Made by a program: the position numbers and the translations under genes. From positions 1 through 64,000 of IMG/VR virus record IMGVR_UViG_2802429224_000004: DNA of 64,000 nucleotides; one strand, given 5' to 3'. Below are positions 3,201 through 41,402 of the stretch, piece by piece; the first letter of the stretch is position 1, and each line of letters begins with the position of its first letter. The stretch is from a virus (Duplodnaviria > Heunggongvirae > Uroviricota > Caudoviricetes). A model generated the notes under the pieces. That model did no database searches and had not been told where the DNA came from. It worked only from the letters and a program-made list of their open reading frames with translations.

Positions 3201-6200
3201 TCCATGTCAGTACATACGCGGTCCATATCCCTGATTATTGAGAAGATCGGACGGGCTTTCTCGTGCTCAATCACGCCGTCTTCATTGACCGAGGTCGTTA
3301 CGCCATTGTTGGCTTTGGCCGCCGCTTCCGCCTGCTGACGCAATTCTTCATACGCCGCCAGTTGTTCTTCAGTAAGTGGTGCATCCTGCTGGTGTTCGTC
3401 CAGCTCCGGGATCTCCACGGTATCCTTAACGTCTTCCGCCGTTTTAAGCGTTACCCAGCGATGGAATATACCGCGCAGCGCATCAAGGTTTTCAAAGCCC
3501 ACCAGCGCCATTTTTTCTTCAACTTCACCGCTGATTTTCTGTACCGTTTCCAGCCTGGTCTTGCCGAAGAATTTAACGAAGTCATCAGGACCGTAGATCC
3601 CCATCTTCTGCCAGTATTCCTTCGGCAGAACATGAGAAAGCATGTTGTATGCATCGATCGGGGTGTTAACGACTGGCGTTGCAGTCAGGAGAACCGGCCC
3701 GCGCCCGCCATTCTTTTTCATCAGGTACGCGTTTTTAATTGCCATATCCCGCGCCGATTGCGCCACCGCGCTGGTGGGCAGATAGGCCAGTTGTGACGCT
3801 TCGCGACCATTTTTATAGCTATTGCGGTAGTTGTGACCTTCGTCGGCGATCACACTATCGAAGCCCATATCCTCAAAGTACGGATACTTCTCTGCTTTTT
3901 CGGTGCCGGTATCTGAATACTCCGACAATACCCGGCGACGCGCGGCCTCTTTGCGGTGGGAGTCGGAGTCCATTGCGCTGGCTACGCGCCCGGCGGCAAC
4001 GAAGTCATAAAGCATATCCTGTGCATGCTCATCTACGGTGTCATCACGTAGCGGAATGCGGGCGTATTGTTCTTTGGTAAACACGACTGCACGGTAATTT
4101 GAGTGCGGGATCGCGTTCATTCGCGCGGTGATAGTGGCTTCATCTGCCAGTTTAAGAGCATCACGCATAAGTGGAGTGCCATCAGTACCAAGGACAGGTT
4201 TACCGTTCTCATCGAGCACCGGCACCTGGCGAATCTGATCGCCATCCATCAGCACATCAAGACCGACGAACAGGTAGTTACTGAATGCTGCTTCACTCAG
4301 GAACTCTTTTGCTTCGTAATACCAGTTTTCCAGCACTGATTTAGGCACTACATAAGCAGTACGGGTGGAGCGACCGTTCTCATAGTTGAACGCCTCAAGC
4401 GCCAGCGCGGTCGTCGTTTTACCCAGCCCGGTGCCGAAGCCCAGGATGCCGCGCCCATCTTCAGACAGTCGTCGCACCTCGCTATTCTGGTAATCAAATG
4501 GCTGGCGCTTACCGCTTAATCCCTTCAACCCAAGCGGATCGCCAGAGTGTTCATACGGAATATTGCTATTGAAAACATCGTTGTATTTGGCAACCAGCTC
4601 ATCGTAGCGATCGTGTGTCTTGATCCACTTATTGAACTGGTCCTCAAGCAGTGCCATCTGCTCGCGGTAGCCGTTCGCCGTCGCGCTATCTTTGCCACCG
4701 ATACGCGCACCATTGAGATACTTTTCCAGCTGTGCCGGGAACCCGGTCGCGTTTTCACCTGATTTACGGTCCCACTCGTAGCGGATCTCGCCTGTTTCTT
4801 TATCCTTGCGCTGGACGACACCGTATCGGTGTCCGACGAACAGACCATCACCACCGTGATAGGTGTCAGAAACCATTTCGTCGCCTTCCAGCTGCACTGA
4901 CTGCACATAGCGCAGATCCGGATAGCCGTTTTCCTGCAAAAACTCCAGAATGACGGAACGGTCGAACCAACGGCTATTGAGCTTAAAGCGGATATTCTCT
5001 GCTGGCGTCTTGATGCGCTTCTCTTCGATCGCTGCCAGCTGATTAAGGACGTTGTTCTTTACTGGACCGTCGGGGAGCGTGGCGAGGAATTCCTGTTTTG
5101 GAACCACTATCTCGTTAATGTCGCCGCTGGTGGCGCGGGCGAACGGAACAATCCCGCCATACGGCGAAACCGCAATACCTGGGGTGCTGGCCAATAAATT
5201 AAGCAACTCTTCATCACTGGCTGGCAGTTCGCCGGTAAACGCAAGGCGGAAATCATCGAGCTGGATTGGATCGCGGGTAAGATCGCTATAGAGATAACGC
5301 AAGGTGTCCTGATAGCTGGTGGAGTCATAACTTGCGCTGGAATCATGCGTAACCAGCTTTCCTGTCAGCTCGTCAGAAATAGTGCCATCCAGCTTAATTG
5401 CACCACGGAAAGCAAACCAGGCGCGCGCACCGCTTCCCGATAATTTAGCTATCGGACCGCGACCGGGGTTACCAAAACGGTCAATCTCTGCCTGCAAACG
5501 GGATACCAGAGAAAGGCGCTGCTGTTCGATTTGTTCAGCACTATGCCCGGCGGCCTTCATATCCTGATATTCAATTAACATCCGGCCAATCATCGCCCCG
5601 CGATACAAGCGTTCACGGTATTTTTCAGGCTGGCTGTTAATCCAATCCACCAGTTGCACCATATCGTCGCTGATTGATGTGGTGTACTTATCGCGGACAT
5701 TTGCCATCTGGGTAAATGTCATGCCGAGACGACCTTCGGTGGTAGTCAGGTTACGCTGAAGAGCCTCCCAGCTATCCGCGCCATAACTGGCAACATCAAT
5801 CTTCAGCTCCTTCCCGGCATCAGCTTCAATCCAGCGACCACCAGCATATTTTTGCCATACGCCATTAATCAGGCGCATTTCCCCTTCATCAAAAACATCT
5901 GCGGTCGGTGACGGCTCAGCCATATCGAGCAAAGACCAGTCGATACGACTTTCGAAACGATGAATCAGCTTCGCTTTAAGAGCCTGGTTATCAATCTGCC
6001 CGTCGGCACGAACCTCAATACGCCCCTGGAAGCCCTTCTCCTGGGTGCCATGAACAAACCGGCGGCCGTCCTTTTCAAACCACTTGCCAGAAATAAACGT
6101 TGGCCAAAGCACATTTGCCGATTCAAGAGTGCTTTCATCCACCAGGGGGATTTTCTCAGCCATCTCTGCCGGATGTTTGCGCATCAGCACCACATCAACG

Positions 6201-36778: not shown

Positions 36779-36959
36779 GTATTTTTAAGTCGCGAATGCT
36801 ATCTTTTCGCATCATATTGACCTTTTAATCGTTCAGGCTTATAGTTCCCGCCGTCGTAGCAAATTCTGCGACCGGGTTTAGCAGCCTGAATACTTACGCG
36901 GACAACCGCAGATTTCCGATATTGCGGTATTTTTGTGTCCGTAAACCACGTTACGCCCG

Positions 36960-37085
36960 AATTATGGTGGGGCGTGATGGGGAGGCTTCGGCCTGCTGGT
37001 TTCGTAAGTGCCAGTCTGCTAACCCCGTCACGTCCTGCCACCTGTTTAGCAGCGGGTCGCAGGTTGTTTATCAACTTACGAGGCC
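36960..37085 (+). ncRNA. candidate c4-like antisense RNA region (boundaries undetermined)
   Basis: Non-coding, structured region between the operator and icd containing stem-loops (aggcttcggcct UUCG tetraloop; ctgctaa...ttagcag); called by position relative to icd/ant only. Confidence 0.2.
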
Positions 37086-39825: not shown

Positions 39826-40671
39826 ATGCTGGCTAAAGTCACTTTCCTGAGCTGTATAACGATGAGCGATTTTACTTTTTCTGGCTATGAATTGGCCTGC
39901 TTTGTAACACACTCCGGTCTATCCCGTAGCGCCGGGCATATCCTGTCGCAATGTGCAAATCTTGCGGCAACAACCAGTGAATACTTCATTCACAAGCCTC
40001 ACCGCATGATCGCGGCAGAAACTGGTTATAGCCAATCAACCGTCGTTCGCGCATTCCGTGAAGCTGTAAACAAAGGAATCCTGTCGGTAGAGATTGTTAT
40101 CGGCGATCACCGTGAACGCCGCGCTAACCTGTACCGGTTTACACCATCCTTTTTAGCCTTTGCTCAACAAGCCAAAAATGCGCTAATTGAAAGCAAATTA
40201 AAGATCTCTTCAGCCGCAACCAAGGTTAAAGCTGTTCTCGCTAAAGCATTGGCTTTATTTGATTTTTTATCCACACCCCCATGTCAAAATGATACCCCCT
40301 CCCCCTGTCAGGATGACGTGGCAATAAAGAATAAGAAGTCACAATTTAAAAAAACAAAAAGATCAGTTTCCGGCGCTGCCGGAACGACCAAACTCAAAAA
40401 ATTGACTTCATGGATCGCTGGGGCAAAAGCAAAGGCCGACAATCTGCGTTTATCCAAAAAACGCGCTCAAAAACATGAGTTCCAGCAGAAAGTTGAGGCA
40501 GCGGCCCGGAAATATGCTTACCTGAAGAGCAAGCGTTCTCCTGATATTGGCGGGATATCAAACTTCGATAATCTGCCGCATTGCATGACGGTAAACGAAG
40601 CTCTTAATGCGGTTTTAGCCAAAAATAACGATAACGAACAATGGGGTATACCGGCAGGATTCAGAGGGTGA
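39826..40671 (+). CDS. repL: RepL-like lytic replication initiator
   Basis: 281 aa, HTH-like segment, immediately after kilA as remembered for P1. Confidence 0.6.
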   Translation: MLAKVTFLSCITMSDFTFSGYELACFVTHSGLSRSAGHILSQCANLAATTSEYFIHKPHRMIAAETGYSQSTVVRAFREAVNKGILSVEIVIGDHRERRANLYRFTPSFLAFAQQAKNALIESKLKISSAATKVKAVLAKALALFDFLSTPPCQNDTPSPCQDDVAIKNKKSQFKKTKRSVSGAAGTTKLKKLTSWIAGAKAKADNLRLSKKRAQKHEFQQKVEAAARKYAYLKSKRSPDIGGISNFDNLPHCMTVNEALNAVLAKNNDNEQWGIPAGFRG

Positions 40672-40721
40672 TAAATTGCTCTAATCTGGGGTCACCTGGC
40701 GTTTTCAGTTTGAGGTCGGAG

Positions 40722-40967
40722 ATGCAATCTGATTTTTTACAGTTAGCGATCGCTTTTGCCGTATATGTTTGCATTGGCTTCTGTGTATGCATGATCAGCC
40801 GAAAAATGCTTGTCGATATCGACCGCAAAGAACGAGCAGAGGAAATCTTAGTATGGATTTTCTTTGGCGCGGTCTGGCCATTAGGGATCATGTTTGCTGC
40901 AACGTTTCTTCTGATGTGGATATTCACCCTTCCTGGTGATTTCTATAGAAAAAAAGCCAGACATTGA
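40722..40967 (+). CDS. small membrane protein
   Basis: 81 aa from ATG 40722 with gaggtcgga RBS; two hydrophobic helices. Confidence 0.4.
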   Translation: MQSDFLQLAIAFAVYVCIGFCVCMISRKMLVDIDRKERAEEILVWIFFGAVWPLGIMFAATFLLMWIFTLPGDFYRKKARH

Positions 40968-41090
40968 TACAATCGCTGCGGGTGCTTGAGGCTATCTGCT
41001 TCAGGCATTACCCGAAAAGCAGATAGAAGAAAGCCCCAGATAACATTACGCGTCCGGCAAGACGCTTAACATTAATCTGAGGCCACATCT

Positions 41091-41297
41091 ATGCTTAACA
41101 TACGTAGATTAGCCTCTTACCGACCAAAAGGTCAAGGAGAAGCAGGCTATGAAGCAGCAAAAGGCGATGTTAATCGCCCTGATCGTCATCTGTTTAACCG
41201 TCATTGTGACGGCACTGGTAACGAGGAAAGACCTCTGCGAGGTACGAATCCGAACCGGACAGACGGAGGTCACTGTCTTCACAGCCTACGAATCTGA
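41091..41297 (+). CDS. mok-like overlapping reading frame of hok locus
   Basis: 68-aa ORF in +1 frame overlapping almost all of the hok-like gene, as in hok/mok/sok loci. Confidence 0.35.
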   Translation: MLNIRRLASYRPKGQGEAGYEAAKGDVNRPDRHLFNRHCDGTGNEERPLRGTNPNRTDGGHCLHSLRI

Positions 41298-41304
41298 AAG
41301 GTAA
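41149..41304 (+). CDS. hok: Hok/Gef-family type I toxin
   Basis: 51 aa MKQQKAMLIALIVICLTVIVTALVTRKDLCEVRIRTGQTEVTVFTAYESER; close match to R1 Hok core ([26 protein letters not shown]); GC hairpin ggcggggagagatccccgcc downstream. Confidence 0.75.
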   Translation: MKQQKAMLIALIVICLTVIVTALVTRKDLCEVRIRTGQTEVTVFTAYESER

Positions 41305-41375
41305 GAGACCTGGCGGGGAGAGATCCCCGCCACTCTTCGTGTGTCAGGTATCCTCAATGCACCCTTTCCTCTCCA

Positions 41376-41402
41376 AATAAAAAAGCTCCCGAAGGAGCTT
41401 TA
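41376..41402 (-). terminator. rho-independent terminator after minus-strand structural operon
   Basis: hairpin aagctcccgaaggagctt with A-run on plus strand (T-run on minus). Confidence 0.5.

What the first reader, a model, noticed from the sequence alone, without database searches (positions are those of the whole stretch)
41085..41310. hok/mok/sok-type type I toxin-antitoxin locus inside the phage-plasmid
A 51-aa Hok-family toxin frame (conserved LTRK.LCE.R.R.G..EV..F.AYES) is overlapped by a mok-like frame and followed by a GC-rich fold-back hairpin, the hallmark arrangement of hok/sok post-segregational killing loci. I do not recall this locus as part of canonical P1, which uses phd/doc, so it would be an additional addiction or abortive-infection module. 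The Sok antisense RNA is expected on the minus strand around 41080-41160.
Basis: partly seen in the sequence, partly recalled or inferred. Interest (0 to 1): 0.55.

Follow-up and report, generated by a model that had tools for sequence, protein, structure and literature searches.

The report
hok/mok/sok toxin-antitoxin cassette in P1-like phage
This is an intact, ordinary hok/mok/sok type I toxin-antitoxin locus that in this P1-like phage-plasmid replaces the rlfA-rlfB-pmgF genes of laboratory P1; the same cassette is already present, with its toxin gene annotated, in hundreds of public P1-like plasmids.

Summary
ORF 41149-41304 (+) encodes a 51-aa Hok/Gef toxin (Pfam E=2.4e-22). It is overlapped by a 68-codon mok frame (41091-41297) and followed by a 9-bp GC hairpin (41311-41332). 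The leader matches Rfam RF01794 at 115.7 bits. All published hok-family RNA elements are present: tac (40980-40991) pairing with fbi (41352-41364), ucb, mok SD, the 3' protective hairpin, and a minus-strand Sok gene. The Sok gene has -35 TTGACC (41135..41130), -10 TAATCT (41111..41106), +1 near 41099, a hairpin at 41084..41032 and a U-rich tail. The helices covary across 60 distinct loci. A 693-bp segment (40686-41378) replaces rlfA-rlfB-pmgF. However, the cassette occurs in about 255 of about 507 repL-bearing PLSDB plasmids and in 230 of 5,426 complete E. coli genomes. RefSeq annotates the toxin as HokD, and the substitution was noted in 2019. The closest tested relative, hokW-sokW of phage Sp5/933W (HokW 92% identical), is a proven type I TA. 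Most likely role: extra post-segregational killing module for the plasmid prophage. Interest is low.

The parts
40946..40973 (+). Predicted hok/mok mRNA promoter: -35 TAGAAA, 16-nt spacer, TG-extended -10 TGATACAAT
   Evidence: Consensus scan, 9 of 12 matches with TG. It lies 6-7 nt upstream of the conserved 5' end GGGTGCTTGAGG. It is not homologous to the 933W or Rac upstream sequence (42% identity). Prediction only.
40980..41366 (+). Full-length hok/mok mRNA (predicted ~385 nt; +1 at 40980 or 40981; 3' end inferred by analogy with the 398-nt R1 mRNA)
   Evidence: Homology with the 933W and Rac hok loci starts at about 40976 and stops at about 41368. MFE -160 kcal/mol, z=-9.08 against shuffles. 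The transcript ends are not mapped experimentally.
40980..40991 (+). tac (translational activator) element, 5' GGGTGCTTGAGG
   Evidence: Pairs with 41352-41364 in the MFE fold (12 bp, one bulge). Alternatively pairs with ucb 41032-41037. Covaries with fbi across 60 loci: U-A 32, C-G 24, U-G 2, C-A 2 at position 3.
41032..41037 (+). ucb / anti-SD box AGCCCC
   Evidence: Aligns with R1 A70-C75, named as the mok anti-SD in PMC9841398. In the predicted fold 41033-41035 pair with GGC of the mok SD.
41079..41093 (+). mok translation initiation region: SD GAGG 41079-41082 and ATG 41091-41093 (Sok target)
   Evidence: Read from the sequence. Aligns with the R1 GAGG at 105-108. It is fully complementary to the Sok 5' tail because the two genes overlap on opposite strands.
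41091..41297 (+). mok reading frame, 68 codons, overlapping hok in the +1 frame
   Evidence: ORF list. The 58-nt offset to hok equals that of R1 and of the annotated mok in MN652886. PHROG 37205 E=5e-23.
41029..41099 (-). Sok antisense RNA (predicted 71 nt): 15-nt single-stranded 5' tail 41099..41085, hairpin 41084..41032, U-rich tail
   Evidence: Mapped from the annotated 933W sokW through alignment A1. MFE -29 kcal/mol, z=-5.37. The hairpin is conserved with compensatory changes across loci. SokW is a 71-nt RNA detected by northern blot (PMC8621323).
41106..41135 (-). Sok promoter: -35 TTGACC (41135..41130), 18-nt spacer, -10 TAATCT (41111..41106)
   Evidence: Coordinates. The layout TTGNCN ... 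GTAAGAGGC-TAAYCT is conserved in more than 50 loci. The homologous -10 hexamer TAACCT of sokW is the one mutated in the 'pro-less' construct that abolished antitoxin activity (primer YO-421). The generic scan missed it because the -10 matches only 3 of 6.
41134..41304 (+). hok: SD AAGGAG 41134-41139; CDS 41149-41304, 51 aa
   Evidence: Pfam PF01848 E=2.4e-22. 92% identical to HokW and 43% to R1 Hok, with all 20 invariant columns kept.
41311..41332 (+). GC-rich 3' stem-loop (9 bp), expected 3' end protector of the processed (truncated) mRNA
   Evidence: Aligns with the R1 hairpin that ends the 361-nt truncated mRNA. 84% of cells paired, with compensatory changes (helix 8).
41352..41364 (+). fbi (fold-back inhibitory) element CCTCAATGCACCC
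   Evidence: Complementary to tac. Lies 44-57 nt after the hok stop in all loci examined.
40686..41378 (.). 693-bp replacement segment relative to phage P1 (81-aa ORF plus hok/mok/sok) in place of rlfA-rlfB-pmgF
   Evidence: P1 homology ends at 40685 and resumes at 41379. The P1 annotation shows 1,826 bp with rlfA, rlfB and pmgF there.

Best explanation
The locus is an intact hok/mok/sok type I toxin-antitoxin module of the hokW/hokD subgroup, carried in a variable region of a P1-like phage-plasmid. The mechanism below is inferred step by step from the R1 hok/sok and Sp5 hokW-sokW systems.

A constitutive promoter (about 40946-40973) makes a stable mRNA of about 385 nt. Its 5' tac element pairs with the 3' fbi element. 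In this closed form ucb sequesters the mok Shine-Dalgarno sequence, so the mRNA is neither translated nor bound by Sok. Slow 3' trimming back to the GC hairpin (41311-41332) removes fbi. The tac element then re-pairs with ucb, which exposes the mok initiation region.

While the element is present, the short-lived 71-nt Sok RNA (41099..41029, minus strand) pairs with that region through its single-stranded 5' tail. This blocks mok translation, and hok translation that is coupled to it, and marks the duplex for RNase III cleavage. If the plasmid prophage is lost, or Sok synthesis stops, Sok decays first. The processed mRNA is then translated and the 51-aa Hok peptide damages the inner membrane.

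The most likely biological role is post-segregational killing that stabilises the low-copy plasmid prophage alongside phd/doc. I put the molecular identity at about 0.9. For the role, I give about 0.5 to post-segregational killing as the main selected function.
For: Shown by sequence and computation:
- Toxin: Hok family membership.
- Leader: covariance-model hit of 115.7 bits.
- Fold-back: a 12-bp tac/fbi closure in the MFE fold, with the same program reproducing it for the characterised R1 398-nt mRNA.
- Alternative pairing: tac/ucb uses the same five pairs as R1 and costs only +3.4 kcal/mol over the MFE (R1 +1.7).
- Covariation over 60 distinct transcripts: 87% paired against 36-47% with slid partners, and 17 pairs with double changes against 3-11. 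The tac/fbi contingency is 32 U-A, 24 C-G, 4 other.
- Sok: promoter and terminator hairpin conserved in position; Sok z=-5.4.
- mok: 58-nt offset as in R1.

From the literature:
- The definitions of the elements come from PMC9841398.
- HokW (92% identical) is toxic. SokW made from the homologous promoter neutralises it. RNase III and Hfq contribute (PMC8621323).

Context:
- The host element is a plasmid prophage. The cassette is kept at 97.5% identity or more among the best-matching P1-like plasmids, and 255 records carry it over most of its length.
- phd/doc co-occurs with the cassette in MH422554.
Against: No expression, toxicity or stability data exist for this copy. The transcript ends are inferred. 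The Sok -10 hexamer matches the consensus at only 3 of 6 positions, and the generic promoter scan found no minus-strand promoter. No convincing + strand intrinsic terminator follows fbi: the nearest hairpin (41382-41401) belongs to the P1 backbone and has a proper T-run only on the minus strand. Thermodynamic folding of the truncated mRNA prefers a local 5' hairpin over tac/ucb, although the same is true for R1. Many chromosomal hok loci are known to be inactive. The closest tested relative acts in phage release and not in plasmid maintenance, so the post-segregational killing role is an extrapolation from R1.
Confidence: 0.85

Rival explanations
1. Lysis or release helper. As shown for hokW-sokW in the Stx2 phage Sp5, Sok would disappear after prophage induction. 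Hok made from the stable mRNA would then permeabilise the inner membrane ahead of holin and endolysin, advancing or increasing release of P1-like progeny.
For: The closest experimentally studied relative has exactly this phenotype: about 2-fold fewer released phage and about 40 min later growth arrest in the hokW-sokW deletion, with RecA-dependent HokW production (PMC8621323). Hok is 92% identical to HokW and the Sok hairpin is 96% identical to SokW. The cassette sits directly beside the lytic replicon repL/oriL.
Against: How SokW is lost on induction is not known, so nothing in this sequence can be tied to it. P1 is not an integrated lambdoid phage and has its own well-timed lysis system. The Sok 5' tail and promoter differ from SokW (73% and 78% identity). 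The effect in Sp5 is modest. The two roles are not mutually exclusive.
Confidence: 0.2
2. Anti-phage (abortive infection or exclusion) module. A superinfecting lytic phage that shuts off host transcription would stop Sok synthesis. Hok would then kill the cell before the invader completes its cycle, protecting clonal lysogens.
For: R1 hok/sok on a high-copy plasmid reduced T4 plating efficiency by 42% and plaque size by about 85%, as cited in PMC8621323. The cassette lies in one of the eight recognised variable regions of P1-like phage-plasmids (PMC9603915), which is the kind of site where accessory or defence cargo accumulates.
Against: The reported effect is weak and needed high copy number, whereas P1 prophage is low-copy. 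I did not scan the locus against PADLOC, so I have no defence-database evidence either way. No infection data exist for this subgroup.
Confidence: 0.12
3. Selfish or decaying passenger. The cassette was recombined into the repL-bplB gap and persists by hitch-hiking or by its own addiction effect, with no benefit to the phage. It may be partly inactive, like most E. coli K-12 chromosomal hok loci.
For: The unit of homology shared with unrelated prophages is almost exactly the transcript (about 40976-41368), consistent with a self-contained mobile module. hok-type sequences occur in 4,738 of 5,426 complete E. coli genomes, with a median of 2 places in the genomes that have any. The K-12 hokD copy lacks the whole leader and sok.
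Against: Every regulatory element is intact here, and the tac/fbi and Sok helices are fully paired. The cassette is the more frequent allele among P1-like plasmids and is highly conserved. No IS element or frameshift is present. A 'selfish' origin does not exclude real stabilisation of the carrier.
Confidence: 0.1

Closest known systems
hokW-sokW (mokW) of Stx2 phages Sp5 / 933W (GenBank AF125520; Takada et al. 2021, PMC8621323)
   Same: The hok mRNA region is 87-89% identical in nucleotides. Hok is 92% identical and also 51 aa. The 71-nt Sok maps base for base, with the hairpin 96% identical. The Sok promoter has the same layout, with -10 TAATCT against TAACCT. The tac and fbi sequences are the same apart from one bulged base. 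Both are carried by temperate phages.
   Different: The host element here is a plasmid prophage (P1 family), not an integrated lambdoid. The window keeps the R1-like +1-frame mok, whereas 933W has a 1-nt deletion that puts the upstream ATG in frame with hok. The Sok 5' recognition tail is only 73% identical, so cross-neutralisation is uncertain. The hok promoter and the 3' flank are unrelated (42-48% identity).
hok/mok/sok (parB) of plasmid R1, the founding, mechanistically dissected system
   Same: The full set of elements is in the same order: tac, ucb, mok SD, Sok target, mok overlapping hok with a 58-nt offset, 3' GC hairpin, fbi, and a Sok gene with its promoter inside the mok 5' region. 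The predicted closed and open folds are the same. Both reside on low-copy plasmids.
   Different: Hok is only 43% identical. The leader is shorter and lacks the R1 insertion at alignment columns 32-50. The Sok target hairpin is longer. At tac position 3 the window has U-A where R1 has C-G. The tac/fbi helix is 12 bp here against 9 bp in the predicted R1 fold.
hok/mok of a Rac-type prophage (MN652886) and RefSeq 'HokD' (WP_001313475.1) in P1-like plasmids
   Same: MN652886 is 92% identical over the transcript and has the same mok/hok geometry and the same Sok -35, -10 and spacer. The best-matching P1-like plasmids carry the whole 693-bp cassette at 97.5-98% identity, with the toxin annotated as hokD.
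   Different: The K-12 hokD (relF) copy retains only the hok ORF and 3' part (query positions 450-679). It has no leader or sok, so the automatic name 'HokD' should not be taken to mean the same defective state. Neither Sok nor mok is annotated in the plasmid records I inspected.

Membership tests
hok/sok type I toxin-antitoxin family (Hok/Gef toxins; hok mRNA family) | Small (about 50 aa) single-pass membrane toxin of the Hok/Gef family with a conserved C-terminal TRK-LCE-R-R-G-EV-F-YE core | tested here: met
   Pfam PF01848 78.7 bits (cutoff 22), E=2.4e-22. PHROG 251 E=4.9e-32. All 20 columns invariant among R1, 933W, Rac and the window are kept. NCBIfam subfamily NF007279 scores 49.5 bits, below its cutoff of 73, so it is not that NCBI subfamily, but the family-level call is unambiguous.
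hok/sok type I toxin-antitoxin family | mok reading frame that starts upstream of hok, overlaps it, and carries the Shine-Dalgarno sequence through which hok translation is controlled | tested here: met
   ORF 41091-41297 with SD GAGG 41079-41082. The 58-nt offset is identical to R1. Translational coupling itself cannot be tested in silico.
hok/sok type I toxin-antitoxin family | Long-range 5'-3' pairing (tac/fbi) that closes the full-length mRNA | tested here: met
   A 12-bp helix 40980-40991 with 41352-41364 in both the MFE and centroid folds. Compensatory changes occur across 60 loci. R1 serves as a positive control.
hok/sok type I toxin-antitoxin family | ucb (anti-SD) that sequesters the mok SD in the closed form and pairs with tac in the processed form | tested here: met
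   AGCCCC 41032-41037 aligns with R1 A70-C75. It pairs with the mok SD in the fold. The same five tac/ucb pairs as in R1 are available at +3.4 kcal/mol. Whether the switch actually occurs is not shown.
hok/sok type I toxin-antitoxin family | Stable 3' stem-loop at which 3' exonucleolytic processing stops (end of the truncated mRNA) | tested here: met
   A 9-bp GC hairpin at 41311-41332, homologous in position to the R1 hairpin that ends at nt 361. The processing itself was not tested.
hok/sok type I toxin-antitoxin family | cis-encoded antisense Sok RNA (about 65-71 nt) with its own promoter, a single-stranded 5' tail complementary to the mok initiation region, and a terminator hairpin | tested here: met
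   Promoter TTGACC-18-TAATCT, +1 near 41099, hairpin 41084..41032, z=-5.37. The position equals the annotated and experimentally supported sokW. The transcript has not been observed for this copy.
hok/sok type I toxin-antitoxin family | Differential stability (stable toxin mRNA, unstable antitoxin RNA), RNase III cleavage of the duplex, and toxicity of Hok | not testable with these tools
   Needs northern or rifampicin chase and induction assays. These were shown for R1 (PMC9841398) and partly for hokW-sokW.
Rfam RF01794 'sok' | Score at or above the gathering threshold of 59 bits over the full 157-position model | tested here: met
   115.7 bits over model positions 1-157, window 40980-41154, + strand. 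The model begins with the tac sequence and ends at the hok AUG, so it describes the hok mRNA leader (the Sok target strand) and not the antisense RNA.
Canonical phage P1 gene set (NC_005856) | rlfA-rlfB-pmgF between repL and bplB | tested here: not met
   P1 homology breaks at 40685 and resumes at 41379. P1 has 1,826 bp there with rlfA, rlfB and pmgF. The window carries the alternative allele.

The most novel reading that the evidence does not exclude
In P1-family phage-plasmids the hok/sok cassette may not be merely a redundant addiction module. It may have been recruited next to the lytic replicon as a life-cycle device, for example helping lysis and release on induction as hokW-sokW does in Sp5, or coupling loss of C1-controlled transcription to killing. 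The fast-diverging Sok 5' tail and mok start region (73% identity to SokW against 96% for the hairpin) would then act as a specificity code. That code would let this cassette coexist without cross-talk with the chromosomal hok loci found in most E. coli genomes (up to 9 matching places per genome).
Probability: 0.15. Interest if true: 0.4.

Novelty: already known. Interest (0 to 1): 0.15.

Why it matters
The practical value is mostly in annotation. Records of P1-like phage-plasmids name only the toxin ('HokD', 'MokW' or 'hypothetical'). The records I inspected omit mok, the Sok RNA and the regulatory elements, whose coordinates are given here. The analysis also shows that the laboratory P1 allele (rlfA-rlfB-pmgF) is the less frequent of the two at this site: about half of sequenced P1-like plasmids carry hok/sok instead. 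This matters when P1 is used as the reference for natural phage-plasmids that spread resistance genes, because such elements carry two independent addiction systems (phd/doc plus hok/sok) and may be harder to cure. It does not reveal a new mechanism.

Tried and rejected
1. Reading the Rfam 'sok' hit as the Sok gene. Rejected: the alignment shows the model starts with tac and ends at the hok AUG, so it describes the sense leader. The minus-strand hit (19.7 bits, 40889-41037) is noise.
2. The generic sigma-70 scan for a minus-strand promoter found none. Its threshold of at least 4 of 6 per hexamer excludes TAATCT. I relied instead on positional conservation in more than 50 loci and on the sokW promoter mutagenesis.
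3. A second tac-like 12-mer at 4403 (-). Rejected as chance: it lies inside a helicase-like coding sequence with no Hok ORF, and about 0.24 such matches are expected.
4. A search for phd/doc in the window by tblastn found nothing. The window covers only part of the element, so this says nothing about absence. I checked a complete relative instead.
5. MFE folding of the truncated mRNA did not give the published open tac/ucb form, either here or for R1. I replaced it with a constrained-fold comparison.
6. Literature searches for an explicit description of hok/sok in P1-like phage-plasmids. I found only a passing note of '2 orfs including antibacterial toxin' and the listing of the site as a variable region.
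7. The outer half of tac/fbi scores poorly in the MAFFT-based count (columns 6-10). The bulge position differs between clades and the fbi is misaligned there. The alignment-free duplex table shows those positions do pair.

Full report
**1. What is at the coordinates**

The window is a P1-family phage-plasmid. It contains C4 antisense RNA, then kilA and repL (39826-40671), then bplB and pmgG on the minus strand (41421 onward), all 96-97% identical to P1 relatives.

It matches Pfam HOK_GEF (PF01848) at E=2.4e-22 and PHROG 251, 'MokW-like host killing', at E=4.9e-32. A 68-codon frame, 41091-41297, overlaps it in the +1 frame. A 9-bp GC hairpin follows at 41311-41332. Rfam RF01794 matches 40980-41154 at 115.7 bits against a gathering score of 59.

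**2. Anatomy**

I used the element definitions summarised in Le Rhun et al. 2022 (PMC9841398). As a reference I used an R1-type locus fetched from plasmid p1658/97. Its numbering reproduces the published A70-G71-C72 and GAGG at 105-108. Each element was then located in the window.

- **hok promoter:** TAGAAA, 16 nt, TG-extended TACAAT, at 40946-40973.
- **mRNA 5' end and tac:** GGGTGCTTGAGG at 40980-40991.
- **ucb:** AGCCCC at 41032-41037.
- **mok:** SD GAGG at 41079-41082, ATG at 41091.
- **hok:** SD AAGGAG at 41134-41139, ATG at 41149.
- **3' hairpin:** 41311-41332.
- **fbi:** CCTCAATGCACCC at 41352-41364.

The 387-nt RNA folds at -160 kcal/mol with z=-9.1. It is closed by a 12-bp tac/fbi helix. 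The same program gives the same closure for the characterised 398-nt R1 mRNA. The alternative tac/ucb pairing uses the same five base pairs as R1 and costs +3.4 kcal/mol over the MFE, against +1.7 for R1.

**3. The antitoxin**

The GenBank record of phage 933W annotates sokW. Through a gap-free stretch of alignment A1, sokW maps to window 41099..41029 on the minus strand.

Upstream on that strand lie -35 TTGACC (41135..41130), an 18-nt spacer and -10 TAATCT (41111..41106), with +1 seven nucleotides further on. The predicted 71-nt RNA has a 15-nt single-stranded 5' tail that covers the mok ATG. It then forms a long hairpin (41084..41032) followed by a U-rich tail. Its energy is -29 kcal/mol, z=-5.4.

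The generic promoter scan did not report this promoter. Two lines of evidence support it anyway. The arrangement TTGNCN ... GTAAGAGGC-TAAYCT is conserved at the same position in more than 50 independent loci. In addition, Takada et al. abolished SokW antitoxin activity by mutating exactly the homologous hexamer: primer YO-421 replaces AGGTTA, which is TAACCT on the Sok strand.

The Rfam 'sok' model describes the sense leader, not the antisense RNA. Its + strand hit should not be misread as the Sok gene.

**4. Comparative support**

A scan of one genome per species returned 79 loci from Escherichia, Shigella, Kluyvera, Photorhabdus, Pantoea, Citrobacter, Enterobacter and other genera. Sixty distinct transcripts were aligned without reference to any structure.

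For five helices taken from the window's fold, 87.1% of cells form standard pairs, against 36-47% when the partners are slid. Seventeen pairs show changes on both sides, against 3-11 in the slid controls. The covariation score is 0.160, against 0.075 or less.

At tac position 3 the partner in fbi covaries: U-A 32, C-G 24, U-G 2, C-A 2. Further compensations include GCCUGAGG with CUCAGGC, and GAGAC with CUCUC. Cognate tac/fbi duplexes are on average 2.4 kcal/mol more stable than non-cognate ones.

This reproduces what is already published for the hok mRNA family. It shows that the window's copy is a fully paired, intact member.

**5. Context**

Homology to P1 stops at 40685 and resumes at 41379. 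The left breakpoint falls inside the C1 operator Orlf. The right one lies just before the bidirectional terminator upstream of bplB. The 693-bp segment between them replaces the 1,826 bp of P1 that carry rlfA, rlfB and pmgF.

The segment holds an 81-aa predicted membrane ORF of unknown function (40722-40967; PHROG 3772) and the hok cassette. Homology to the hok loci of lambdoid and Rac-type prophages covers almost exactly the transcript, about 40976-41368. The flanks are unrelated, at 42-48% identity.

**6. Prevalence and prior knowledge**

- The whole 693-bp segment is present, at 80% coverage or more, in 255 PLSDB plasmids. The best-matching records are 97.5-98% identical, and most matching plasmids are non-mobilizable and about 90-100 kb. 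RefSeq annotates 'hokD' plus a hypothetical protein in them.
- It is present in 230 of 5,426 complete E. coli genomes.
- For comparison, 507 plasmids carry P1-type repL, and 99 carry the canonical rlfA-rlfB-pmgF segment.
- Six P1-like phage records have the cassette. One labels the toxin 'MokW'.
- Venturini et al. [quoted passage not shown]
- A 2022 survey lists rlfA-rlfB-pmgF as one of eight variable regions (PMC9603915).
- A complete relative with the cassette also encodes Phd and Doc. The window itself does not reach that part of the genome.

These counts are raw record counts. They are not dereplicated.

**7. Function**

The molecular mechanism is inferred by homology from R1 and from hokW-sokW. 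That system is the closest tested relative, with Hok 92% identical. In it the toxin is toxic and localises to the inner membrane, and SokW neutralises it with help from RNase III and Hfq.

For the biological role I favour post-segregational killing, because the carrier is a low-copy plasmid prophage. The Sp5 result, in which hokW-sokW speeds growth arrest and doubles phage release after induction, is a serious alternative. It does not exclude the first role. Phage exclusion, as reported weakly for R1 hok/sok against T4, and a purely selfish passenger are less likely.

**8. Verdict**

The predicted Sok position is off by about 50 nt. The locus is a common, already annotated allele of a well-understood family. 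I rate novelty as 'already known' and interest as low (0.15). The residual interest lies in whether the cassette has a phage life-cycle role in P1-like elements, and in the rapidly diverging Sok recognition tail.

Noticed in passing
window 40722-40967 (+): An 81-aa ORF (MQSDFLQLAIAFAVYVCIGF...) that looks by eye like a small protein with 2-3 transmembrane segments. It forms the left half of the replacement cassette. It matches PHROG 3772 (unknown function) and has no Pfam or NCBIfam hit. Homologues occur only in P1-like phages downstream of repL; the SJ46 homologue is 43% identical. Its stop codon overlaps the TG-extended -10 of the hok promoter.
   Followed up: partly
window 40675-40691: The left breakpoint relative to P1 falls inside the C1 repressor operator Orlf (Op55). 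The window reads AATTGCTCTAAT then ctgggg, where P1 reads AATTGCTCTAATTATAACC. Only about 11-12 nt of the 17-bp operator remain, so C1 control of whatever is transcribed downstream of repL is probably lost or altered.
   Followed up: partly
window 40980-41154 (+), Rfam RF01794: The Rfam family named 'sok antitoxin (CssrC)' actually models the hok mRNA leader strand: its consensus starts with tac GGGUGCUUGAG and ends at the hok AUG. Automated annotation from this model would put 'sok' on the wrong strand and at the wrong coordinates.
   Followed up: yes
L001 (933W) 1622-1834 compared with window 41091-41149: In 933W, and in the many chromosomal hokW-type loci seen, a 1-nt deletion (AAAGG-CAAGG) puts the upstream start codon in frame with hok. 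The annotated 'MokW' is therefore an N-terminally extended HokW. The window, the Rac-type locus MN652886 and R1 keep the 58-nt offset in the +1 frame.
   Followed up: partly
window 41085-41135: The Sok 5' recognition tail (with the mok start region) and the Sok promoter are the fastest-diverging parts relative to 933W, at 73% and 78% identity. The Sok hairpin is 96% identical and the hok CDS 94%. This fits selection for insulation between co-resident hok/sok loci; up to 9 matching places per E. coli genome were counted.
   Followed up: partly
PLSDB counts: Among about 507 plasmids with P1-type repL, about 255 carry the hok cassette and about 99 carry the canonical rlfA-rlfB-pmgF allele. The rest carry other inserts, for example ISEc46 or Lom-type inserts as in RCS47 and SJ46. 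The laboratory P1 allele is in the minority. The counts are not dereplicated.
   Followed up: partly
window 41382-41401: The P1-backbone hairpin AAAGCTCC-CGAA-GGAGCTTT is a good intrinsic terminator for the minus-strand bplB operon (followed by TTTTTATTT). On the plus strand it has only TTTAAAAT after it. The hok transcript therefore has no convincing terminator of its own here, unlike the Rac-type copy, where CCCGCTTCGGCGGGTTTTTT follows fbi directly.
   Followed up: no
window 4392-4403 (-): A second exact tac-like 12-mer, GGCGCTTGAGGC, lies inside a helicase-like coding sequence (...GFGTGLGKTTTALALEA...). No Hok ORF or leader follows it, and about 0.24 such matches are expected by chance.
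   Followed up: yes
window 36839-37045 (+), 58068-58139 (+) and 60082-60154 (+): Rfam also finds the P1 immunity C4 antisense RNA together with its a1/b1 target, and two tRNA genes. These are expected P1-family features and confirm the identity of the backbone.
   Followed up: no
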